Below are positions 255 to 24,250 of a DNA stretch of 64,000 nt, one piece after another. The notes beneath the pieces are model-generated. The model did not search any database. It was not told the DNA's origin and saw only the letters and a list, made by a program, of their open reading frames with translations. The DNA lies in the NCBI RefSeq assembly GCF_009914755.1, contig NC_060933.1. One strand, 5' to 3'. Within the stretch, counting starts at the first letter, position 1. Each line of letters opens with the position of its first letter. This DNA comes from the human T2T-CHM13v2.0 reference genome, Homo sapiens. A program made the position numbers and the translations under genes.

Positions 255-1756
255 CATATCATACAATGCACTTAAACTGTATAATTGAATAGTTTTTTAG
301 TATATTCATGGATTTGTGCAATTATCACTACAAATCAGTATTAGAACATTTTTATCACTCCAAAAAGAAACATCGTATTCTTTAGAAGTCATTTCACATT
401 TTCCCCAATACTTCCAGCTATAGGCCATTTTATTTATCCATTCATCAGTTGATGGACATTTTGATTGTGTCACTTTTTGGCTAATATGGATAATGAGCTG
501 TGAACATTCATGTAAAAATTTTTGTGTGGACATGTGATTCATTTCTCTTGAGTATATCATCTGTGAATGGAATTTTTAGGCCATATGTTAATTCTGTTTA
601 TCCTTTTGAGGAACTGATGCATTGTTTTCCAAAGTGGCTTTATCTTTTTATATTCCCACCAGCAATGTGTGAGATTTCCAATTTCACCACACCATTACTA
701 GCGCATATTATTGTCTTTTTTATTATAGCCACCCTAGTGGGTGTGAAGTGGCATCTCACTGTGGTTTTGATGTACATCTGAGTATCTTTTTTGTGCTTGT
801 TAGGTATTTGTATATCTTCTTTGGGAAAATATCTAGTCAGATCATTTGCCCATTTTCAATTTATATTTTGTTTTAGTGTTGAGTTGTAAAATTCTTTTCA
901 TATTTTGGATACTAGAATCTTACCAGACTTAATGATTTGCAGATATTTTCTTCCATTCTGTAAGTTTTTTTTTTCACTGATAGTGCCCTTAGAAGCACAA
1001 ACTGGTAAAATTTTGTTGAAGGCCGGGCACAGTGGCTCACACCTATAATCCCAGCACTTTGGGAAGCTGAGGTGGGCAGATCACCTGAGGTCAGGAGTTT
1101 GAGACCAGACTAGCCAACATGGTGAAACCCCATCTCTACTAAAAATATAAAAATTAGTTGTGCGCGCCTGTAATCCCAGCTACTCAGGAGGCTGAGGCAG
1201 TAGAATCACTTGAACCAGGGAGGCAGAGGCTGCAGTGAGATGAGATTGTGCCACTGCACTCAAGCCTGGGCAACAGAGAAAGACTCTGTCTCAAAAAACA
1301 AAAAACAAAAAACACACATTTTTTTTATGAGTCCAATTTACCTATTTTCTCTTTTATTATGTATTCTTTGTGTGTCATAGCTAAGAAACCGTTGCCAAAT
1401 CTAAGGTCATGAAGATTTACCTCTATATTTTCTTCAAGAGTTTTATAGTTTTAGCTCTTGTATTTAGTTTTTATGATCTGTTTTGAGTTAAATTTTGTGT
1501 ATGGTATGACGAACAGTCCAAGTTTTCTCATGTGGATATATAGTTGTCTGAGCACTATTTATTGTAAAAACCGTTCTTTTCCTTTGTGAATTGCCTTTAC
1601 AATCTTGTCAAAAATCAGTTGACTGTAAATTTGAGGGTTTATTTCTAGATTCTCAATTTTATTCCATCCATATGTGTGCCTGTCCTTATGCTATTACCAT
1701 TACGTCTTAATTGTTGTAGCATTGTAGTTAGTTTTGAAATCAAGACGTGTGACTCT
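255..1756 (-). mobile_element. Old L1M (L1MA/MB-type) 3' portion; host of an Alu and of the L1P at 1757
   Basis: T-rich antisense L1 3'UTR/ORF2-end sequence. ORF 306..560(-) shows the degenerate 'KCPSTDEWINKM' L1 ORF2 C-terminal motif. Confidence 0.7.
1021..1312 (+). mobile_element. AluS (Sx/Sz-like)
   Basis: GGCCGGGCACAGTGGCTCAC start, dimeric structure with central A-linker, A-rich tail. Confidence 0.92.
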
Positions 1757-4700
1757 GGTAGGATCCAAGATGGCTGATTAGAAGCAGCTGTGGTCCATGG
1801 CACTCATGGAGAGAAGTGAAAAGGGGCAAGTGAATTCAGCACCTTCAACTGAAATAGCCAAGTTCTTGCATTGGGACTGTCTAGGCAGACAGCTTAACCC
1901 ATGGAGAAGGAAGAAAAGCAGTGGGGTGGGGGACCATGGCCCACCTGGGAGCAGCATGGGGCCAAAGGAACCCCCATTGCCAGCCAAGGGAAGCAGTGAG
2001 TGATTATGCAACCTTGCCCAGGGAACCACGCTTTTCTCATGGACCTTTGCGACCCGTAGATCAGGAAATCCCATCGTGAGCCCATGCCACCAGGGTCTTG
2101 GGTCCAATACACACAGCTGTGTGGAGTTTTGGCAGAGCAGCTGCTCAGTCATACACAGAGACCCAGGAGTTTATATACTCTGGCCCTGGAGTCCTTAGCA
2201 AGTGAGGAAATCCATCCGTACATATTCCTAGGAAGAGGGCTGAATCCAGGGAACCAAGCAGCATTGTGCTGCAGGCCCCACTTCCATGGCATCTCATAAT
2301 TTAAGACCCACTGGCTTGGGTTCCAGCCTGCCAACAGCAATAGGCTGGAATATGTCTGAGACAGGTCTTGAGTTCCTGGGGGGAGGGGCGGCTGGCATCT
2401 ATGCAGTTTGGTAGACTCAGCCGTTCCAGCCTGCCAGCTTTGGAGAATACAAACAGTCCAGATGAGGAAGGGTCCCCCACAATGCAGCACAGCTGCCTTG
2501 GCAGATCATGGCCAGACTGCTTCTTTAAGCAGGACCCTGATTCATTCCTCCTCACTGGGCAGGACCTTCCTGTGGGGCCTTTAGCCACTTCAGAAGGGTT
2601 CTATTGGGACGTAGCTCTCAGGGGGAGGAGTGGCCGCCATTTTTGTGGTTTGGTAGACTCAGCTGCTGTAGTCTGCTGGCTTTGGAGAATACAAATGTTA
2701 CAGATGAGAAAGAGTTTCCCCACAATGCAGCACAGCTGCTTTGCTAGATCATTACCAGACTGTTTTTTTAAGCCGGGCCATGATCCATTCCTCTTCACTG
2801 GAGAGGACCTCCCTACGGGGACTTCATCCATTCCAGCCAGGGTTCTCCATCTCTCCCTGGGATGGAGCTCCCAGAGGGAGGGGCAGTCACCATCTCTGTG
2901 ACTCAGTTGACTCATCCATTCTAGGCTGCCGGCTTTGGAATGCCCAAATGGTTCAGACAAGGAAGGTCTCCCCCAGTGCAGCACACCTCTACCAAAAAGC
3001 AGCCAGACTGCTTTTTTAAGCGGGTCCCTGATCCTGTTCCTCCTGACTGGGTGAGACCTCCCAACAGGGATCTGTAACCACCTCCTACAGGTGTGTTCGG
3101 TCTGGCAGCAGGTCAGAACCCACCTGGGGCAGAGCTTCCAGAGGAAGGAGCTGGCTGCCATCTTTGCTGTTTCATAGCCATCACTGATGATACCTCCAGG
3201 TTTGGGAAAAACCAAGGTAACAAGGGTCTGGAGTGGACCCTCAGCAAACCGCAGCAACCCTGTGGTAGACTGGCCTGACTGTTAAAAACAAACAGAAAAC
3301 AACAACAACATAAACAAAAAAGGCCCCACAAAAACCCCATTCAGAAGTCAGCAACTTCAAAGATCAAAGGTAGATAAGCCCACAAAGATGAGAAAGAATG
3401 CAAAAATGGTGAAAACTCAAAAAGCCAGAGTGCCTCTTCTCCCCAAAATGATTGCAACATCTCTGCAGCAAGGGCATGGAACTAGGCTGAGGCTGAGATG
3501 CCTGACTTGACAAAAGTAGGCTTCAGAAGGTGAGTAATAATGAGCTTCACTGAGCTAAAGGGGCATGTTCTAACCCAATGGAAAGAAGCTAAGAATCATG
3601 ATAAAACGATAAAGGAGCTGATAGCTAGAATAGCCAGTTTAGAGAGGAACATAATTGACCTGATGGAACTGGAAAACACAACATGAGAACTTCACAATGC
3701 AATCACGAGTATCAACAGCAGAATACATGAAGCAGAGGAAAGCAGCTCAGAGCTTGAAGACTATCTTTCTGAAATAAGACAGGCAGACAAAAATAGAGAA
3801 AAAATAATGAAAAAGAATGAACAAAATCTCTGAGAAATAGGGGATTATGTAAAGAGACAGAACCTATGATTGGAGTACTTGAAAGAGACGAGGAGAATGG
3901 AACCAAGTTGGAAAACATACTTCAGGATATCATCCAGGAGAACTTCCCCCACCTAACAAGACAAGCCAACATTCAAGTTCAGGAAATCCAGGGAACCCAG
4001 TTAGATACTCCATGAGAAGTTCAACCCCAAGACACATAATCATCAGATTCTCCAAGGTCGAAATGAAAGAAAAAATGTTAAGGGCAGCCAGAGAGAAAAA
4101 CCAGGTCACCATCAAAGGGAAACCCAGCAGACTAACAGTGGACCTCTCAGTGGAAACCCTACGAGCCAGAAGAGATTGGGGGCCAATATTCAATATTCTT
4201 AAAGAAAAGAATTTCCAACCCAGAATTTCATATCCAGCCAAACTAAGCTTCATAATTGAAGGAGAAATAAGATCCTTTTCAGACAAGCAAATGCCGAGGG
4301 AATTCATGACCACCAGGCCTGCTTTGCAAGAGCTCCTGAAGGAAGCACTAAATATGGAAAGGAAAAACCATTACCAGCCATTACAAAAACACACTGAAGC
4401 ACAGACCAGTGACACTATGAAGCAACCATATAAACAAGTCTGCAAAATAACCAGCTAGCATCATGATGATAGGATCAAATTTACATAACAACAATACTAA
4501 CCTTAAATATAAATGGGCTAGAGGCCCCAATTTAAAGACACAGAATGGCAGGCTGGATAAAGAGCCAAGACCCATCAGTATTCTGTCTTCAAGAAACCCA
4601 TATTCCATGCAAAGACACACATAGGCTCAAAATAAAGGGATGGAGGAAAATTTACCAAGCAAATGGAAAACAGAGAAAAGCAGGGTTGCAATCCTAGTTT

Positions 4701-7577: not shown

Positions 7578-8245
7578 TTTTTTTATCTTTTAAATTTTAT
7601 TTCAATAGTTTTTGGGGGACAGGTGTTTTTTTGGTTACATGGATAAGTTCTTTAGTGCTAATTTCTGAGTTTGGTACACCTGTCACCTGAGCGGTGTATA
7701 CTGTACCCAATGTGTAGTCTTTTGTCCTTCATCTCTCTCCCACCCTTCCCCCCAAGTCCTCAAAGTTCATTGTATCATTCTTATGCCCTTGCATCCTCAC
7801 AGCTTAGCTCCCACTTATAGAGAACATATGATATTTGGCTTTTCATTTCTGAGTTACTTCACTTAGAATAATGGTCTTCAACTCCATCCAGGTTGCTGCA
7901 AATGCCATTATTTTATTATTTTGTTCCTTTTTATGGCTGATTAGTATTCCATGGTGTATACATACCACATTTTCTTTATCTACTTGTTGGTTGATGGGCA
8001 TTTAGGCTGGTTCCATATTTTTGCAATTGCTAATTGTGCTATAAACATGAGTTTGCAAGTGTCTTTTTCATATAATGACTTCTTTTACTTTGTGGAGATA
8101 CCCAGTTGTGGGATTACTGGATCAAATGGTAGTTCTACTTTTAGTTCTTTGAAGAATCTCCATACTGTTTTCCATAGTGATTGTACTAGTTTATATTCCC
8201 ACCAGCAGTGTAAAAGTGTTCCCTTTTCAACACATCTACACCAAT
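7578..8245 (-). mobile_element. L1PB-type 3' end, 5'-truncated
   Basis: Poly-T followed by 'ggttacatggataagttctttagtg...' (L1PB 3'UTR, antisense) and the antisense ORF2 end. Confidence 0.75.
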
Positions 8246-8289
8246 ATTTTAAAAATATTTAAAAATAAAAATTATTTGAAAAAACACTG

Positions 8290-8550
8290 AGAAGTGTGGG
8301 TTATCTATTGGCTGCTCAGTAAAAGGAGTAATTGTGAAATAGAGCTGTTGTGAAATAAAGCATAAGGAACGGTAAAGAATGACTAAAACTGAAAAGAGGC
8401 TGTTGGGTTTCGAAATTAAGAGATACTTGGTGACCTTAGTAAAAGCAATTTCAGTGGACTGGTAAGGGATAGAAAAATGATTGTAATCAATTGAGGTGAA
8501 TAAAAAAGTGAAGATGAAGAGTATAAACTATTTTAAAGGGATTTGGAGGG
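8290..8550 (-). mobile_element. L2 fragment
   Basis: Purine-rich degenerate 'ttggtgaccttagtaaaagcaatttcagtggactgg' motif typical of antisense L2. Confidence 0.5.
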
Positions 8551-8890
8551 AGTATAAACAGGAATAAAACTTGGGAGAGCAGTTTGGCAATATCTGACAA
8601 GGTTGAAGATCCACGTATCTTGTGACTTGTTAACTCTATTTTTAGGTATAACCAACAGCAGTGTTTCCCAAGGTATGGTACGGGGCACAACTTTATCAGA
8701 ACCACTTTAAAAAAATTCTTTAGCAGATGCTATTCAAATCGGCGGCAGGGCCAGTGGTTGTGCTGAGACTCGCCACTGCCCAGGCCGCTGGGCCTGAGTG
8801 TTGCCTTCGCTGCCATGGACGCCAGTGGGCACTGACAGACCTATGGAGAGTTGGGGTGTGCCTCCCAGGCCTTATCTGGCCACCAAACTG

Positions 8891-9051
8891 GAATGCCCTT
8901 CAGGCGGGCATGTATTATTCGTCCTACTTTACCAGTGTGGACACTGAGGCTCACAGACGTTAAATCCTTCTAAAGACACATCTACAGCAAGTGGCAGAGC
9001 TAGAATTCAGATCTTCCTGGTATGGCGATCTTACATGGATTCTGCTACTTA
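8891..9051 (-). mobile_element. MIR-derived 161-nt segment at the DEPDC1 exon 1/2 junction of the retrocopy
   Basis: 'attattcgtcctactttaccagtgtggacactgaggctcacagacgttaa...aagtggcagagctagaattc' resembles the antisense MIR core. Sits exactly between the codons for ...TKL and WNE... Confidence 0.75.
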
Positions 9052-12000
9052 TGGAATGAAATTACCACATCTTTTCGAGCAGGAATGCCTCTAAGAAAAC
9101 ACAGACAACACTTTAAAAAATATGGCAGTTGTTTCACAGCAGGAGAAGCAGTGGATTGGCTTTATGACCTATTAAGAAATAATAACAGTTTTGGTCCTAA
9201 AGTTACAAGACAACAGACTATCCAACTGTTGAGGAAATTTCTTAAGAATCATGTAATTGAAGATATCAAAGGCAGGTGGGGATCAGAAAATGTTGATGGT
9301 ACTAACCAGCTCTTCAGATTTCCTGCAACTTAGCCATTTAAAACTCTGCCACGAAGACATCCAGAATTGAGAAAAAACAACATAGAGAACTTTTCCAAAG
9401 ATAAAGATAGTATTTTTAAATGATGAAACTTATCTCATAGAACTCCTAAAAAGCATGGATTACATTTATCTCAGGAAAATTCCGAGAAAATAAAGCATGA
9501 AATAATCAATGAAGATCAAGAAAATGCAGTTGATAATAGAAAACTAAGCCAGGAAGATGTTGAAGAAATTTGGAGATATGTTATTCTGATCTACCTGCAA
9601 ACCATTTTAGGTGTGCCATCCCTAGAAGAAGTCATAAATCCAAAACAAGTAATTCCCCAATATATAATGTACAACATGGCCAATACAAGTAAACATGGAG
9701 TAGTTACACTACAAAACAAATCAGATGACCTCCCTCACTGGGTATTATCTGCCATGAAGTGCCTAGCAAATTGGCCAAGAAGTGATGATACGAATAATCC
9801 AACTTATGTTGGATTTGAACAAGATATATTCAGCACAATCACAGATTATTTTCTAGATCTCCTTGAACCTCTCCTTACTTTTGAATATTATGAATTATTT
9901 GTGAACATTTTGGTTGTTTGTGGCTATGTCATAGTTTCAGATAGATCCAGTGGGATACATAGAATCCAAGATGATCCACAGTCTTAAAAATTCCTTCACA
10001 ATTTGAATTCCTTCAAATCAATGGAGTGCCTTCTTCTCAGTCTGCTTCATAGAGAAAAAAGAAGAATAAGATTCTACTGAGAGACTACGGATAAGCAATC
10101 CAGGATTTCAAGAAAGATGTGCTAAGAAAATGCAGCTAGTTAATTTAAGAAACAGAGGAGTGAGTGCTAATGACATAATGGGAGGAAGCTGTCATAATTT
10201 AATAGGGTTAAGTGGTATGCATGATCTGTCCTCTAATAGCAAACCAAGTTGCTGTTCTTTGGAAGGAATTGTAGATGTGTCAGGGAATTCAAGTAAAGAG
10301 GCATCCAGTGTAAAGAGGCATCAATCTTTTCCAAACATAGAAGGACAAAATACTAAACTGTTTTTAGAGTCTAAGCCCAAACAGGAATTCCTGTTGAATC
10401 TTCATTCAGAGGAAAATATTCAAAAGCCATTCCGTGCTGGTTTTAAGAGAACCACTACTTTGACTGCTCAAGACCAAGAGGAGTTGTGTAATGGGAAATG
10501 CAAGTCAAAACAGCTTTGTAGGTCTCAGAGTTTGCTTTTAAGAAGTAGTACAAGAAGGAATAGTTGTATCAACACACCAGTGGCTGAAATGATCATGAAA
10601 CCAAATGTTGGACAAAGCAGCACAAGTGTGCAAACAGCTATGCAAAGTGAACTCGGAGAGTCTAGTGCTGCAATCAATAAAAGACTCTGCAAAAGTTCAA
10701 TAGAATTTTCAGAAAATTCTTTACTTCCAGCTTCTTCTGTGTTGACTGGTACACGAAGTTTGCTGCAACCTCATTTAGAGAGGGTTGCCATCGATGCACT
10801 ACAATTGTGTCGTTTGTTACTTCCGCCACCAAATTGTAGAAAGCTTCAACTTTTAATGCGTATGATTTCCCAAATGAGTCAAAATGTTGATATGTCCAAA
10901 CTTCATGATGCAATGGGCATGAAATCACCGATGATACATACCTTTTCTCGATGTGTGCTATGCTGTGCTGAAAAAGTGGATCTTGATAAGCTTCTGGCTG
11001 GAAGATTAGTTTCTTTCTTACTGGATCATCATCAGGAAATTCTTCAAGTACCAACTTATTTACAGACTGCAGTGGAAAAACATCTTGAATACTTAAAAAA
11101 GGGACATATTGAAAATCCTGGAGATGGACTATTTGTTCCTTTGCCAACTTATTCATACTGTAAGCAGATTAGTGCTCAGGACTTTGAAAAGCAAAAAGTT
11201 TCTACCTCTCAAGCTGCAGTTACAGAACTTATAGAAAATGTTATTAAAAACAAGAGTTTACCTCTAAAGGAGAAAAGAAAAAAACTAAAACAGTTTCAGA
11301 AGGAATACCCCTTGATATATCAGAAAAGATTTCCAACCACGGAGATTGAAGCAGCACTTTTTGGTGACAAACCTACAATCAAGCAACCAATGCTGATTTT
11401 AAGAAAACCAAAGTTTTGTAGTCTAAGATACTAACTGAATTAAAAATTATGTAATACTTGTGGAACTTTGATAAATGAAGCCATATCTGAGAATGTAGCT
11501 AATCAAAAGGAAGTCTGTTATTAATAAGGTATTTCTAAATAAGCACATTATGTAAGGAAGTACCAAAATAGTTGTTTATCAATGTGAGACTCCTAGGAGA
11601 CTAACTAGATCTCAACTGAGAACACGTAACAATAGGTGATACCAAATACTTTTTGTTTTTAACACAGCTATCCAGTAAGGCTATCATGATATGTGCTAAA
11701 ATTTTATTTGCTTGAATTTTCAAAATTGAGCTATGTTCATCAAGATTAAACTATAATTCTGTTTTTAAAAGAAAATTTATCTGCATATGTGCAAGTTCTG
11801 AGATATTAGCTAATGAATTAGTTGTTTGGGGTTACTTCTTTGTTTCTAAGTATAAGAATGTGAAGAATATTTGAAAACTCAGTGAGATAATTCTCAGCTG
11901 CCAAATGTTGCACTCTTTTGTATATTCTTTTTCCACTTTTGATCTATTTATATATATGTATGTGTTTTTAAAATATGTGTATATTTTATCAGATTTGGTT

Positions 12001-12351
12001 TTGCCTTAAATATTATCCCCAACTGCTTCAGTCATTCATTTGTTTAATATATATATGTTTTGAATTCTAATTTGCATAATCTATTAGAAGATGGGGACGT
12101 AAAAGAAGTATAAGGCAATCATATATTCATTTAAAAGATACTTATTTAGCAACTGCTATGTGCCTTTCATTGTTCCAGATATGCGGAGACAGTGATAAAT
12201 AAAACATATAATCTCTTCTGTAAGGTATTTATTTTTAATCAAGGGAGATACACCTATCAGATGCTTAAAATAACAACATTACCTACTGCAATCAGGGCAT
12301 ATAGAATCATTCAGCCTAAGACTGACTTCTATGATGATGGAACAGGTCTCT

Positions 12352-12530
12352 AAGCTAGTGGTTTTCAAATTGGTGCACATTAGACTCACCCGAGGAGTTT
12401 TAAAACAGCCTATATGCCCAGGGCCTAACTTATACTAATTAAATCTGAATTTTAGGGATGTTGTCTAGGGATTAGTATTTCTTTTAATCTAGGTGATTCC
12501 AGTATTCAGCCAACTGTGAGAATCAATGTC
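12352..12530. mobile_element. MER5-like hAT DNA transposon fossil carried in the DEPDC1 3'UTR
   Basis: 'tagtggttttcaaa ... tgagaatcaatg' termini with internal 'attaaatctgaattttaggg...aggtgattcc'. Confidence 0.55.
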
Positions 12531-12926
12531 CTAAATGCTTTTTATAAACATTTTTATAAGTGTCAAGATAGTGGCACATTGACTTTATTTTTTCATTAGA
12601 AGAAAATGCTTGCCGAGTATAAATGCCTCTCATCTTAAAACAAGGTTCTTCAGGTTTCTGCTTGATCGACTTGGTACAAACTTGAAGCAAGTCGCCTTCT
12701 ATTTTTTACTCCAAGGTTGTTTAATATCTATTCCTTAAGTGTAAAGAAATATATAATGCCTGGGTTGCAATAAAATCTTAATGTTTAATGACTATTCTCA
12801 TTTCTCAATATAATTTCATAATATTTCTCTATAAAGTGATAGTGTTCCATTTAACATTACTGATTTTTATTAAAAATCTGGACAGAAAATTATAAATATG
12901 ACTTTATCCTAGAAACTGGCTATAAA

Positions 12927-15773
<2,847 letters not shown>

Positions 15774-16325
15774 AGAAACTGGCTATAAAATTATTGGACC
15801 AAATTGAATTCTTTCTAAGGCATTTGTATGCTGAAACTTTTTTTGTTTATAGATTTGTAAAATGTGGATTATTTTGCAAATTGAGATTAAAATTATTTGG
15901 GGTTTAGTTACAATTTAAAAAATGCTTTAGCAAAGTAGCATTTAATATTTATTGACGAAATCATTAGAAATGAGCTCCTTTAAAAATTTTTAAAAGTCAA
16001 CTTTTTAGAAGTATAATTTATGCATATTAAACTATATTCATGGATAATAAAGTACATTCAGTCTAGGAGTACATTTTGATGAGTTTTGACAAATTTGTAT
16101 ACCTGTGTAACTACTACCACAGTCAATGTATGAAACATTTCTATCACTTTGGAGCATTTCCTTGTACCTTACTCTAGTAAATCCCAGCCACTACCCATAG
16201 CCCCAGTATACCATTTATCCACTTTATATCACTACAGATTAGTGTTTTCTGTAGTTTCATATGGAGTCATATAGTATGTACTCATTTTGTTTTTGAGATT
16301 TATCCATGTAATTACATATTCCTGA

Positions 16326-16777
<452 letters not shown>

Positions 16778-17410
16778 AGACATGTATTTTCGTTTCACTT
16801 AATAACTAGGAGGAGAATTGCTAGGTCATCTGAAAAGCATATGTTTAACTTTTTAAGAAACTGCCACACTATTTTTCAAAATGGTTGTATCATTTTACAT
16901 TCCCACTAGCAATGTATGAGAGTTCTGATTGTCCTAGATCCTTGTTAATTATTTGGTATTATCAGTCATTTTAATTTTAGCGTTTTGTAGGTATGAAGTG
17001 ATATCGCATTATAGTTTTCTTTTGCATTTCTGTGATGGCTAGAGATTTGAGCGTCTTTTCGTGTGTTTACTGGCCACTCACATGTGATCTTTTGAATAGT
17101 GTCTGTTTAAATATTTTGTCCATTAAAAATTGTATTATTATTGAGTTGTAACAGTTCTCTGTATATTCAGGATGTCAATCCTTGGTGAGATATATGTATT
17201 GCAAATAATTTTCTCCCAGTTTATGCTCTTCCTTTTTCTTTGTTTAGTGTTGTCTTTAGAAGAGCTGAAGTTTTAAATTTTGATGAAGTTTACTTTACTA
17301 GATTTTCCTTTCATGGCCCTTCTTTTTGTGTCCTATTAAGAAACTATTTTATTCCTCAAGGTTTTGAAGAGTTTTCACCTGTTTCTTCTAAAAGTTTTAT
17401 AATTTTTGCT

Positions 17411-17757
17411 TTTTTTTCTGTTTTTTTTTATTATTATACTTTAAGTTCTGGGATACATGTGCACAATATACAGGTTTGTTACATATGTATACATGTGCCA
17501 TGTTGGTGTGCTGCACCCATTAACTAGTCATTTACATTAGGTATATCTCTTAGTGCTATCCCTCCCCCCTCCCCCCACCCCACGACAGGCCCCGGTGTGT
17601 GGTGTTCCCCACCCTGTGTCCAATTGTTCTCATTGTTCAATTCCCACCTATGAGTGAGAACATGCGGTGTTTAGTTTTCTGTCCTTGCGATCGTTTGCTC
17701 AGAATGATGGTTTCCAGCTTCATCTATGTCCCTACAAAGGACATGAACTCATCCTTT
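17411..17757 (-). mobile_element. Short L1PA (PA4/5-like) 3' fragment
   Basis: Poly-T plus 'attatactttaagttctgggatacatgtgc...aaaggacatgaactcatcc'. Degenerate T-rich TSD tttttgcttt/tttttacttt. Confidence 0.85.
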
Positions 17758-19992
17758 TTACTTTTAGAGTCTGTGAACCATTTCAAATTAAGTTTTATGA
17801 GTCCTACAAGGTAAGGGTCAGGTTTTTTTTTTTTCCTCCATATGAGTAGGAAGTTGTTACAACACTGTTTGTTGAAAAGACAGTTCTTTCCCTCATTGAA
17901 TGATCTTGCCACCTTTGTTGAAAATCAGTTGGCTTGACCTATGTGGGTCTATTTCTAGACTATATTCTGTTCTATTGATTTATATGTCTATTTCTAGCCA
18001 ATACTAAACTGTCTTAATTACCATAACTTTATAGTAAGTCTTAAAATCAAGTAGTACAGTTTCTCCAACTTTATTTTCTCAATATTTCTTAGGATAGTCT
18101 ACATCTTTTATATTTCTAAATAAGTTTTATGATAAAGTTGTCACTTCCTATGGAAAAAACGCCTTCTGGAATTGTTTTTGAGATTGCATCTATAGATTAA
18201 TTTGGGAAGAAATCAGATCTTAAAAAGATTTAGTCTGTTGATCTCTGAACATGGTATGTTTCTCCAGTTATTTAGGCCTTTAAATTTTTGGAGTACTATT
18301 TTGTGGTCTTCATTGTTTTATATGTATCTTGTTAAATTTAAATTTATCCTGAAGTAGTTCATATTTTTGGATGCCTTTAGAAATAGTAGTTTTTCAAATT
18401 TCAATTTGGAATTTTACATTGCTTCTATGTACATTGCTTGTAAGAATAATCTTACACATTGTTCTTGTATCCTGTGACCTTGCTAAATTGCCTGTTGGTT
18501 CTGGTAGCTTTTGTGTAGATTCTTTAGCATTGTCTATATACATGGTTTTGTCTATGATAAAGATAGTTTTACTTTTTCCTTTTCAACCCGGATGCTGTTT
18601 TTTTCCTTGCCTTATTATATTGGCTAGAATGTCCTGTACAATGTTGAAGAGAAATGGTGAGAGTAGACATCTTTGTTTTGTTTGTGACCTTAGTGGGAAA
18701 ACATTCAGCCTTTTAACTTAAATAAGATATTAGCTATTAAGCATCTTATAGATATCCTTTATGAGGTTAAGGAAGTTCTCTTTTATTTCTAGTTTGCTGA
18801 AAGTGTTTATCATGAATGGGTGTGGGATTTTGTCAAATGCTTTCTTCTGTATCATTTAAAATAATCATAGGGGTTTTCTCTTATATTCTGTTAATATAGT
18901 GGATTACATTGATTGATTATTAAAATGTTACATAAATCTTTCATTCCTGTGATAAACCCCATTTAGTCATGATGCGGTATCCTTTTTGCATATTACTGAA
19001 TCCATTTTTTAAAATATTTTCAAGGATTTTTTTCCAGTGTGCTAATGGATATTGGTTTGTAGTTTTCTCTGTAATTTTTTTCTCCTTTTTGTATTAACAT
19101 AAAATTGGGCTCATTAAATAAATGGAAAATAATTTCTCTAATCTCTGAGTTTATGTAGGTTTGATATTATTTATTGGTAAATGTTTGATAGATTCACTAA
19201 TGAAGTCATTTGGGCCTAGAATTTTCTTTAAAGGAAGGTTTTTGATAACAATTTCTTACATAGATATAGGGCTATGCAGATTTTCTATTTTACTTGTGTC
19301 TGTTTTACTAAGTTGTATTTATTACGGAATTTGCCATTTCACTTAAGTTTTTTATTGTTGGCATGAAATTGTTGATAATAGTTTTTTGTTATCCCTTTAA
19401 TGTCTGTAGAATTTGTGGTAATGTCTCCACTTTCATTCCTGATATTGGTGATCTGTGTTTTCTTTTTCTGTCTTTTAAAATCACTCTACCTAGAGGTTTG
19501 TCAGTTTCATGGATTTGTTTCAAAGACCCAGCTTTTGGTTTCATTGGTTTTTCTGTTTTAGATTTCATTAATTTCAGGTCTTTTTTATATCCTTCCTTCT
19601 GTTTACTTTGGGGTTTACTTGGTTCTTCCTTTACTATAAAGAAAATATTGATAAATTTGACTCCATAAATTGTTTTTTAAAGTTGCATGGCAAAAGCCAC
19701 TGTGGACAAAGTCAAAATATAGCTATCAAATAGCTGTGATAAAATACTTACAACATATATCAGAGGGCTGGTATGCCTGATATATAACAACCTCTTAAAA
19801 ATTAAGGGATAAAGGACCAAAACCTGATGGAAAAGTTAAAGGAAAGTTATCAACAGACAATTCACACAGAAAAGATCAGGAAATGTTCCTCAAACATATT
19901 AAAAAATGTGGAACTCATACTTGAGAAACATTAATTAAAATAACACTGAGATACCATTTCTCATTCATCAAAACTGGCACAAAATTTTAAAT

Positions 19993-20240
19993 TTGTATTT
20001 TATTTTAGTTTTGAGACAGGGTCTCGCTCTGTCACTCAGGCTGGAGTGCAGTGGCATGATCACGGCTCACTGCAGCCTTGACTTCCCAGGCTCAAGTGAT
20101 CTTCCCACCTCAGCCTCCTGAGTAGTTGGGACTACAGGTGTGTGCCACCATGCCTGGCTAATTTTTGTATTTTTTGTACAATTTTGGTTTCACTATGTTG
20201 CCCAGGCTGGTCTCAAACTTGGACTCAAGCAACCTTCCCG
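19993..20240 (-). mobile_element. AluJ, 5'-truncated, inside a sense L1M fragment (about 19640-20310)
   Basis: 'gagacagggtctcgctctgtc...gatcacggctcactgcagccttgacttcccaggctcaagtgatc' AluJ diagnostics. Confidence 0.85.
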
Positions 20241-24039: not shown

Positions 24040-24250
24040 TATTTAGTAATCGAACTCAGAATCTGGATATTGCAAACTTCTTTACCACTTATTAGCTTTG
24101 TGATTTTGGGCAAGTTATTTAACCTCTCAGAGCCTTGGTTCCACATCTCAATGATGAGGGTAATAATAGAATAGTTGTTGGGTTAAAGTTAAAGAGAACG
24201 ACAATGTAAAGCACTTATCTTCGTTCTGACACATGTTAAATGCATAGTGA
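24040..24250 (+). mobile_element. MIR
   Basis: 'tagctttgtgattttgggcaagttatttaacctctcagagccttggttcc...gtaataatag' MIR core. Confidence 0.7.

What the first reader, a model, noticed from the sequence alone, without database searches (positions are those of the whole stretch)
8891..9051. Fossilised MIR-derived 'poison' exon of DEPDC1 captured in the retrocopy
Seen: after exactly 16 codons (ATG 8843 to ...AAA CTG 8890) there is a 161-nt insert with no TSD or poly-A, and the DEPDC1 frame resumes precisely at TGG AAT GAA (9052). The insert is antisense-MIR-like, not a multiple of 3, and has an in-frame TGA at 8945-8947. Established: MIRs stopped transposing long before primate retrocopies formed, and antisense SINEs are frequently exonised. 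Inference: the retrotransposed mRNA was an alternatively spliced DEPDC1 isoform with a cassette exon from intron 1. The pseudogene would have been dead on arrival and records a germline NMD-type isoform.
Basis: partly seen in the sequence, partly recalled or inferred. Interest (0 to 1): 0.7.

Follow-up and report, generated by a model that had tools for sequence, protein, structure and literature searches.

The report
Retrocopy preserves an extra DEPDC1 exon
A dead, reverse-transcribed copy of the human DEPDC1 gene on chromosome 9 still carries a 161-base extra exon that was spliced in from an ancient repeat in DEPDC1's first intron, a tidy but ordinary example of a pseudogene recording an old minor splice form.

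Summary
Window 8891-9051 matches one other place in the genome, full length at 93%: chr1:68373396-68373556 (-), inside DEPDC1 intron 1, between exon 1 and exon 2. There it is flanked by a pyrimidine tract + AG and by GTAAGT.

The retrocopy is a full-length spliced DEPDC1 mRNA: 12 exons plus this cassette, all joined at AG/GT sites. It has a target-site duplication and ends 27 nt after ATTAAA. The cassette is as diverged as the other exons. A second, younger retrocopy on chr15 has the plain exon 1/2 junction, so the exon was alternative.

Two points qualify the reading. The stop lies only 39 codons after the AUG, a zone where NMD is often weak. An in-cassette AUG reopens the DEPDC1 frame for 805 codons. 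"Poison exon" is therefore plausible but unproven.

The chr9 copy shows no trace of coding constraint and is now full of stops. The MIR label and its antisense orientation rest on recall; only "dispersed repeat family" was tested. This is a new member of a known kind, of modest interest.

The parts
8712..8725 (+). 5' copy of the retrocopy's target-site duplication (AAAATTCTTTAGCA; the A-run starts at 8709)
   Evidence: 13 of 14 bases repeated at 15919-15932. It lies next to the first base of parental homology, with only G 8726 between. The preceding CTTT|AAAA fits an L1 endonuclease site (recalled consensus).
8727..8890 (+). DEPDC1 exon 1 part of the retrocopy, with the canonical ATG at 8843. 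It starts 33 nt upstream of RefSeq's pseudogene start (8760).
   Evidence: aligns to chr1:68374501-68374338 (-), 148 of 164 identical. In the parent this exon ends ...AAGCTG|gtaaga, and a CCAAT motif lies just upstream of the homology start.
8891..9051 (+). The finding: a 161-nt cassette exon from DEPDC1 intron 1, repeat-derived (MIR-like, antisense by recall)
   Evidence: chr1:68373556-68373396 (-), 150 of 160 aligned bases identical plus two 1-nt indels. In the parent it is flanked by ttttcctcttAG| and |GTAAGTta.
8945..8947 (+). In-frame TGA of the retrocopy (codon 35 from ATG 8843)
   Evidence: The parent's own in-frame stop is TAA at cassette nt 70-72.
9022..9024 (+). ATG inside the cassette, in frame with exon 2 (context ctggtATGg); identical in retrocopy and parent
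   Evidence: in the parental spliced sequence it opens an 805-codon ORF (10 new residues, then WNEV...); in the retrocopy this ORF now stops at codon 104.
9052..12926 (+). DEPDC1 exons 2-12 (first part of the last exon), joined without introns
   Evidence: 11 blocks collinear with chr1 exons, each parental exon bounded by AG and GT. DEP domain (PF00610, E 5e-16) in the exon 2-3 part.
12927..15773 (-). Later repeat insertion into the retrocopy's 3' UTR, L1-like with a poly-T at its left end. It is flanked by a 16-nt duplication AGAAACTGGCTATAAA (12911-12926 and 15774-15789).
   Evidence: and the hub's mask at 12917-15779. The L1 name is recalled from the sequence next to the poly-T and was not tested.
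15790..15918 (+). Last part of the DEPDC1 3' UTR in the retrocopy. ATTAAA lies at 15886-15891 and parental homology ends at 15918.
   Evidence: 91% identical to chr1:68352838-68352699 (-). No homology beyond 15918.
15919..15932 (+). 3' copy of the target-site duplication (AAAATGCTTTAGCA). No separate poly-A tail can be told from its A-run.

Best explanation
DEPDC1P2 is an L1-type processed pseudogene. It was made from a full-length, fully spliced DEPDC1 mRNA that also carried a 161-nt alternative cassette exon between exons 1 and 2. That exon is an exonised piece of an old dispersed repeat in DEPDC1 intron 1 (MIR, antisense, by recall). The repeat still has a pyrimidine tract + AG and a GTAAGT donor in today's parental gene.

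The exon shifts the frame and stops the canonical ORF after 39 codons. The copy therefore never encoded canonical DEPDC1 and has drifted neutrally, for roughly 20-40 million years by inference.

The captured isoform was most likely a minor, unproductive splice form of a gene that I recall as testis-expressed. Its stop is start-proximal, so NMD was probably inefficient, which may have helped the isoform reach the retrotransposition machinery.

Shown: the map, the splice sites, the frame and the neutral pattern. Inferred: low inclusion, NMD status and age.
For:: the 161 nt have one other genomic match, chr1:68373396-68373556 (-), full length, 93%.

that place lies between exon 1 (ends at 68374338) and exon 2 (starts at 68372081) on the same strand. 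Its flanks are ttttcctcttAG| and |GTAAGT.

all 12 exons plus the cassette are collinear, every parental exon is bounded by AG/GT, and 4083 of 4307 aligned bases are identical (94.8%). The cassette scores 150 of 160 (K2P 0.066 against 0.054 overall), so it is the same age as the rest.

a target-site duplication matches at 13 of 14 bases, and homology ends 27 nt after ATTAAA.

the chr15 retrocopy has exon 1 joined directly to exon 2.

in 2057 three-way columns there are 86 chr9-only, 53 chr15-only and 19 parent-only changes, so the chr9 copy is the older one.

the parental exon 1 + cassette gives a 39-codon ORF. Its TAA lies 89 nt before the next junction and 2339 nt before the last.

chr9-only CDS changes by codon position are 26/27/27 (p 0.99), with 25 synonymous and 55 non-synonymous.

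the retrocopy ORF is now broken many times.
Against: No RNA evidence could be consulted, so present-day use of the exon and its inclusion level are unknown. No annotation of the chr1 locus was available.

The retrocopy has no recognisable poly-A beyond 4-6 A's shared with the duplication.

The ancestral state of the 1-nt difference at about 8936 cannot be polarised with one genome.

The NMD part is weakened by the start-proximal position of the stop and by the in-frame AUG at 9022.

The MIR name rests on recall.
Confidence: 0.93

Rival explanations
1. The cassette isoform is not a poison form but a translatable variant. After the short 39-codon ORF, ribosomes reinitiate at the in-cassette AUG and make an 805-residue DEPDC1. 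Ten new N-terminal residues replace the first 16, and the DEP domain stays intact.
For:: an AUG at cassette nt 132 has G at -3 and G at +4, is in frame with exon 2, and opens an 805-codon ORF. It lies 59 nt after the TAA. (passages of PMC12477815): start-proximal stops are less likely to trigger NMD, partly through reinitiation, and the paper classes stops within about 200 nt as NMD-evading; the DEP domain starts at residue 11 of exon 2, so it would be kept.
Against: Another AUG directly follows the stop (TAAATG) and opens an out-of-frame 43-codon ORF that runs past the in-frame AUG. There is no conservation, ribosome-profiling or protein evidence. The retrocopy shows no coding constraint at all. 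That argues only about the copy, not about the parental isoform.
Confidence: 0.1
2. The 161 nt entered the chr9 copy at the DNA level after retroposition, by gene conversion, filler DNA at a break, or a repeat insertion, and not as part of the mRNA.
For: The heptamer TGGAATG at 8889-8895 and 9052-9058 could be mistaken for a short duplication.
Against: The segment's ends coincide to the base with an AG and a GT in the parental intron, and with the exon 1/2 junction in the copy. Its divergence equals that of the other exons. The heptamer is not a duplication, because the parental junction already reads CTG|TGGAATG. There is no poly-A. The family is ancient, so a fresh insertion would not be 93% identical to one particular intronic copy.
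Confidence: 0.01
3. The exon was constitutive, the main isoform, when the retrocopy formed, and was later demoted.
For: The older of the two retrocopies carries the exon and the younger lacks it.
Against: The exon breaks the canonical frame after 16 codons, so a constitutive state would have abolished the canonical protein. It is repeat-derived intronic sequence. One copy of each kind gives no frequency information.
Confidence: 0.02

Closest known systems
Processed pseudogenes as archives of splice isoforms (Shemesh et al. [quoted passage not shown] 2016, PMC4772013, which lists retrocopies as archives of 'transcript isoforms')
   Same: A retrocopy carries an exon absent from the reference mRNA. 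The parental gene shows that exon as an AG/GT-bounded intronic segment.
   Different: This is a single locus, not a survey. Whether this case is in that paper's list could not be checked, because the paper is not held.
MIR exonisation (Krull et al. 2007; Lin et al. 2009; seen only as references and one sentence in Sela et al. 2010, PMC2879366)
   Same: An old SINE-type repeat in an intron supplies both splice sites of an alternatively used cassette exon. The first intron is the location that PMC2879366 describes as a buffer zone for new exons.
   Different: The MIR assignment here is recalled and was not run against a repeat library. The retrocopy gives a minimum age for the exonisation, which expression data alone do not. 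Neither paper could be read.
Poison (NMD-coupled) cassette exons
   Same: A frame-shifting cassette with an in-frame stop more than 55 nt upstream of downstream exon junctions.
   Different: The stop is only 117 nt from the AUG, in the start-proximal zone classed as NMD-evading. No NMD-inhibition data and no conservation data are available.
Inverted-repeat control of repeat-derived exons (the sense/antisense Alu pair described in PMC2879366)
   Same: In the parental intron an oppositely oriented copy of the same repeat lies about 22 nt upstream. It is predicted to pair with the pyrimidine tract, the 3' splice site and the first ~65 nt of the cassette.
   Different: The arms are only about 74% complementary. 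The effect on splicing is a prediction and editing was not examined.

Membership tests
L1-mediated processed pseudogene (retrocopy) | Exons of the parent joined exactly at splice junctions, with no introns | tested here: met
   13 collinear blocks, and every parental exon is bounded by AG and GT.
L1-mediated processed pseudogene (retrocopy) | Target-site duplication flanking the copy | tested here: met
   8712-8725 against 15919-15932, 13 of 14 bases.
L1-mediated processed pseudogene (retrocopy) | 3' end at a polyadenylation site, followed by poly-A | tested here: inconclusive
   homology ends 27 nt after ATTAAA, but only 4-6 A's follow and they overlap the duplication.
Alternative cassette exon of DEPDC1 | Lies in an intron of the parent on the gene's strand, bounded by AG and GT | tested here: met
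   intron 1, ttttcctcttAG| ... |GTAAGT; 12 of 18 pyrimidines at -20..-3, and 6 of 9 donor consensus positions. The 11 other 3' splice sites (exons 2-12) have 11-16 pyrimidines, and the 11 other real donors (exons 1-11) match 6-8 positions.
Alternative cassette exon of DEPDC1 | Skipped in other transcripts of the same gene | tested here: met
   the chr15 retrocopy has exon 1|exon 2 directly. The hub's RefSeq table splits the pseudogene around 8891-9051, so the reference mRNA lacks the segment.
Alternative cassette exon of DEPDC1 | Junction reads or cDNAs in present-day RNA | not testable with these tools
   No RNA-seq, EST or chr1 annotation is on hand. Literature searches found no mention.
Poison exon / NMD-coupled splicing | In-frame stop more than 50-55 nt upstream of a downstream exon junction | tested here: met
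   the TAA lies 89 nt before the cassette/exon 2 junction and 2339 nt before the last junction.
Poison exon / NMD-coupled splicing | Stop not in an NMD-evading position (last exon, last 55 nt, start-proximal) | tested here: not met
   the stop follows 39 codons (117 nt after the AUG); stops within about 200 nt are classed as NMD-evading.
Poison exon / NMD-coupled splicing | Isoform rises when UPF1/SMG1 is inhibited | not testable with these tools
   Needs an experiment or expression data.
MIR SINE | Similarity to the MIR consensus (tRNA-related head, core, LINE-related tail; structure as described in PMC5832001) | not testable with these tools
By recall the cassette matches the head-to-core part in reverse complement. 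Rfam gave nothing.
MIR SINE | Member of a dispersed, diverged repeat family | tested here: met
   a profile of three chr1 copies gave 5 hits at E <= 0.01 in 99 kb. They are the 3 seeds, the retrocopy's cassette and one new copy at window 24080-24168 (-), E 9e-15; an 11-mer from the cassette occurs 3 times in the window against 0.56 expected, and 2 of 100 shuffles reach 3, which is weak.

The most novel reading that the evidence does not exclude
The cassette is a regulated, translation-competent alternative 5' exon rather than splicing noise. A start-proximal stop lets the mRNA evade NMD, and reinitiation at the in-cassette AUG gives an 805-residue DEPDC1 with a new 10-residue N-terminus. Inclusion is gated by a hairpin between two inverted copies of the repeat, which buries the cassette's 3' splice site. 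The retrocopy shows that this arrangement was already in use in the germline some 20-40 million years ago.
Probability: 0.08. Interest if true: 0.5.

Novelty: new member of a known kind. Interest (0 to 1): 0.3.

Why it matters
The retrocopy gives a dated, sequence-level record. This repeat-derived exon of DEPDC1 was already spliced into full-length mRNA in germline or early-embryo cells when the chr9 copy formed.

Both splice sites are still intact in the human gene, so the exon is a concrete candidate to look for in testis and tumour RNA. By recall, DEPDC1 is a proliferation and cancer-testis gene.

The case also shows that RefSeq's two-'exon' drawing of DEPDC1P2 is an alignment gap caused by this cassette, and that the pseudogene is longer at both ends than annotated.

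Beyond that, it is one more example of two well-described phenomena.

Tried and rejected
1. Conserved 3' half of the cassette. The last 66 nt of the cassette plus the first bases of exon 2 form a 77-nt run identical between copy and parent. This is one of 7 runs of 75 nt or more among 215 runs in the whole alignment, so it is not unusual.

2. Pseudo-duplication TGGAATG at both ends of the insert. Rejected.

3. One search folded the wrong stretch, the cassette plus downstream intron. It shows no excess structure (z 0.21). The relevant stretch was folded.

5. Rfam scan of the parental region: 0 matches at E <= 1.

7. Papers by Shemesh 2006, Krull 2007 and Lin 2009 are not held. Whether they list this DEPDC1 exon is unknown.

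8. Literature searches for DEPDC1P2 (2 papers, seen only as search listings of title and abstract start, which concern a cancer expression list and runs of homozygosity), DEPDC1 + NMD + exon (10 papers), DEPDC1 + cryptic exon (2 papers) and DEPDC1 + poison exon (3 copies of one work). None describes an exon in intron 1. The one splicing event read (PMC11178535, passages) is a DEPDC1 cassette-exon skipping event; the passages give no exon number, and from the paper's 'long isoform' primers I take it to be the known long/short isoform exon. The DEPDC1 hit in PMC13254395 is DEPDC1B. The other hits were seen only as search listings. These searches cover open-access text only, not supplements.

Full report
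**Observation**

- ATG is at 8843, and 16 codons run to CTG at 8888-8890.
- 161 nt follow at 8891-9051. They do not belong to the DEPDC1 reading frame.
- The frame resumes at TGG AAT GAA (9052).
- Translation from the ATG gives 34 residues and then TGA at 8945-8947.
- The hub's RefSeq table draws DEPDC1P2 as two 'exons' split exactly around this stretch, so the reference mRNA lacks it.

**Where the 161 nt come from**

A search of the window's own 3.1-Gb assembly found one other match: chr1:68373396-68373556, minus strand, covering all 161 nt at 93% identity, E 7e-59. The flanking parts of the retrocopy map to the same strand of the same locus.
- Window 8760-8890 maps to chr1:68374468-68374338.
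- Window 9052-9317 maps to chr1:68372081-68371816.

The segment therefore sits inside DEPDC1 intron 1, in the gene's orientation. Local alignment shows three things.
- Exon 1 ends ...AAGCTG|gtaaga.
- Exon 2 starts ...ttacag|TGGAATGAA.
- The 161-nt segment is bounded by ...cattttcctcttAG| and |GTAAGTtat.

By simple counts the cassette's sites fall within the range of the other DEPDC1 exons' sites. It has 12 of 18 pyrimidines at -20..-3, against 11-16 for the 3' splice sites of exons 2-12. It matches 6 of 9 donor consensus positions, against 6-8 for the donors of exons 1-11.

**The whole retrocopy**

BLAST of window 8000-20000 against 35 kb of the chr1 locus gives 13 collinear blocks, namely 12 exons plus the cassette. 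Every parental block is bounded by AG and GT.
- Homology starts at 8727, which is 33 nt upstream of RefSeq's start and just downstream of a CCAAT motif in the parent.
- It runs to about 12926.
- It is interrupted by a 2.85-kb repeat insertion with its own 16-nt duplication.
- It resumes and ends at 15918, 27 nt after an ATTAAA.
- The copy is flanked by AAAATTCTTTAGCA (8712-8725) and AAAATGCTTTAGCA (15919-15932), which match at 13 of 14 bases.
- No poly-A can be told apart from the A-run of that duplication.

Overall, 4083 of 4307 aligned bases are identical (94.8%, K2P 0.054). The cassette has 150 of 160 identical plus two 1-nt indels (K2P 0.066), which matches the other exons. The cassette therefore arrived with the rest of the mRNA.

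**A second retrocopy as a control**

The exon 2 query also hit chr15:29561876-29562315. That copy has exon 1 joined directly to exon 2 (...AAGCTG|TGGAATGAAG) and no cassette.

In 2057 ungapped three-way columns, 1896 are identical. There are 86 chr9-only, 53 chr15-only and 19 parent-only changes, and 3 columns differ in all three. The chr9 copy is thus the older one, with 4.2% change on its own branch. At a recalled neutral rate of about 1-2 x 10^-9 per site per year, that is roughly 20-40 million years. This is an inference, not a measurement. The exon was alternative, not constitutive.

**Coding consequences**

In the parental spliced sequence the canonical ORF is 811 codons. With the cassette, the ORF from the same AUG is 39 codons. 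It ends at a TAA at cassette nt 70-72, 89 nt before the next junction and 2339 nt before the last. The retrocopy's own TGA comes into frame through a 1-nt difference at about 8936. Which state is ancestral cannot be told from one genome, but a stop falls inside the cassette either way.

Two points qualify the 'poison exon' label.
- The stop is start-proximal. Passages of PMC12477815 say such stops are less likely to trigger NMD, partly through reinitiation, and that paper classes stops within about 200 nt as NMD-evading.
- An AUG at cassette nt 132 (window 9022, G at -3 and +4) is in frame with exon 2 and opens an 805-codon ORF. This ORF keeps the DEP domain, which starts at residue 11 of exon 2.

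Against translation of that ORF, another AUG directly after the stop opens an overlapping, out-of-frame 43-codon ORF.

**State of the copy**

The chr9-specific CDS changes fall 26/27/27 on codon positions 1/2/3 (p 0.99), with 25 synonymous and 55 non-synonymous. From the in-cassette AUG, the retrocopy now stops at codon 104 and many times after that. Nothing suggests it was ever under coding constraint.

**Repeat origin**

No repeat library is held. What could be tested is as follows.
- A single-sequence nhmmer search found that the intron just upstream of the cassette is an inverted, diverged copy of the cassette's 5' part (E 4e-16). It also found a weak third copy about 230 nt downstream (E 1.9).
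- A profile of these three copies gave 5 hits at E <= 0.01 in 99 kb: the 3 seeds, the retrocopy's cassette and one new copy at window 24080-24168 (-), E 9e-15.

So the cassette belongs to a dispersed, old repeat family. That the family is MIR, and that the cassette is its reverse complement running from the tRNA-related head into the core, agrees with my recall of the consensus. It was not tested.

**Predicted hairpin**

The inverted pair is predicted to fold into a long hairpin of -89.4 kcal/mol. Shuffles average -65.2 +/- 4.9, giving z = -4.96, and 0 of 200 shuffles fold as well. The central arms are 54 nt long, 74% complementary and separated by 22 nt.

The hairpin pairs the pyrimidine tract, the AG and the first ~65 nt of the exon. 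The cassette's 3' splice-site region has a mean paired probability of 0.75.
- In a 260-nt context the other 11 sites score 0.37-0.67.
- In a 500-nt context they score 0.35-0.85, and exon 12 is higher than the cassette.

That this hairpin keeps inclusion low is an inference.

**Comparison with what is known**

Retrocopies as archives of transcript isoforms are established. Carelli et al. 2016 cite Shemesh et al. 2006 for this (passages). MIR exonisation is also established, though here it was seen only as references and one sentence in Sela et al. 2010.

Four searches of the open-access library found no description of this DEPDC1 exon or of the structure of DEPDC1P2. Supplements, the three key papers and the chr1 gene models could not be seen.

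**Verdict**

This is a clean new example of a known kind, of modest interest.

Noticed in passing
L009:1925-2117 (chr1 DEPDC1 intron 1, just upstream of and into the cassette): An inverted pair of the same repeat family forms a predicted long hairpin (-89.4 kcal/mol, z -4.96). It buries the cassette's pyrimidine tract, its 3' splice site and the first ~65 nt of the exon.
   Followed up: partly
window 8727-8759 and 12485-12926, 15790-15918: The retrocopy is longer than RefSeq's DEPDC1P2 (8760-12484). It starts 33 nt further upstream, and its 3' UTR continues to 15918 across a repeat insertion.
   Followed up: yes
window 12927-15773: A 2.85-kb repeat insertion into the retrocopy's 3' UTR has a poly-T at its left end and a 16-nt target duplication (12911-12926 / 15774-15789). 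It looks like an antisense L1 3' part by recall. Its pieces match chr1 intronic repeats in mixed orientations, so it may be internally rearranged.
   Followed up: partly
L006 (chr15:29560376-29563815), gene-sense positions about 1310-3440: A second, younger DEPDC1 retrocopy has the canonical exon 1/2 junction. Its 5' end reaches about 20 nt further upstream than the chr9 copy and includes the parental CCAAT motif, so it used a different start site or arrived another way.
   Followed up: partly
window 24080-24168 (-): Another copy of the same old repeat family as the cassette (profile E 9e-15) lies in the last TMEM38B intron, about 400 nt before the last exon.
   Followed up: no
window 8727-15918: The retrocopy lies in the last intron of TMEM38B on the same strand as the host gene (hub table). 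Whether it is carried in TMEM38B pre-mRNA or affects its splicing was not examined.
   Followed up: no
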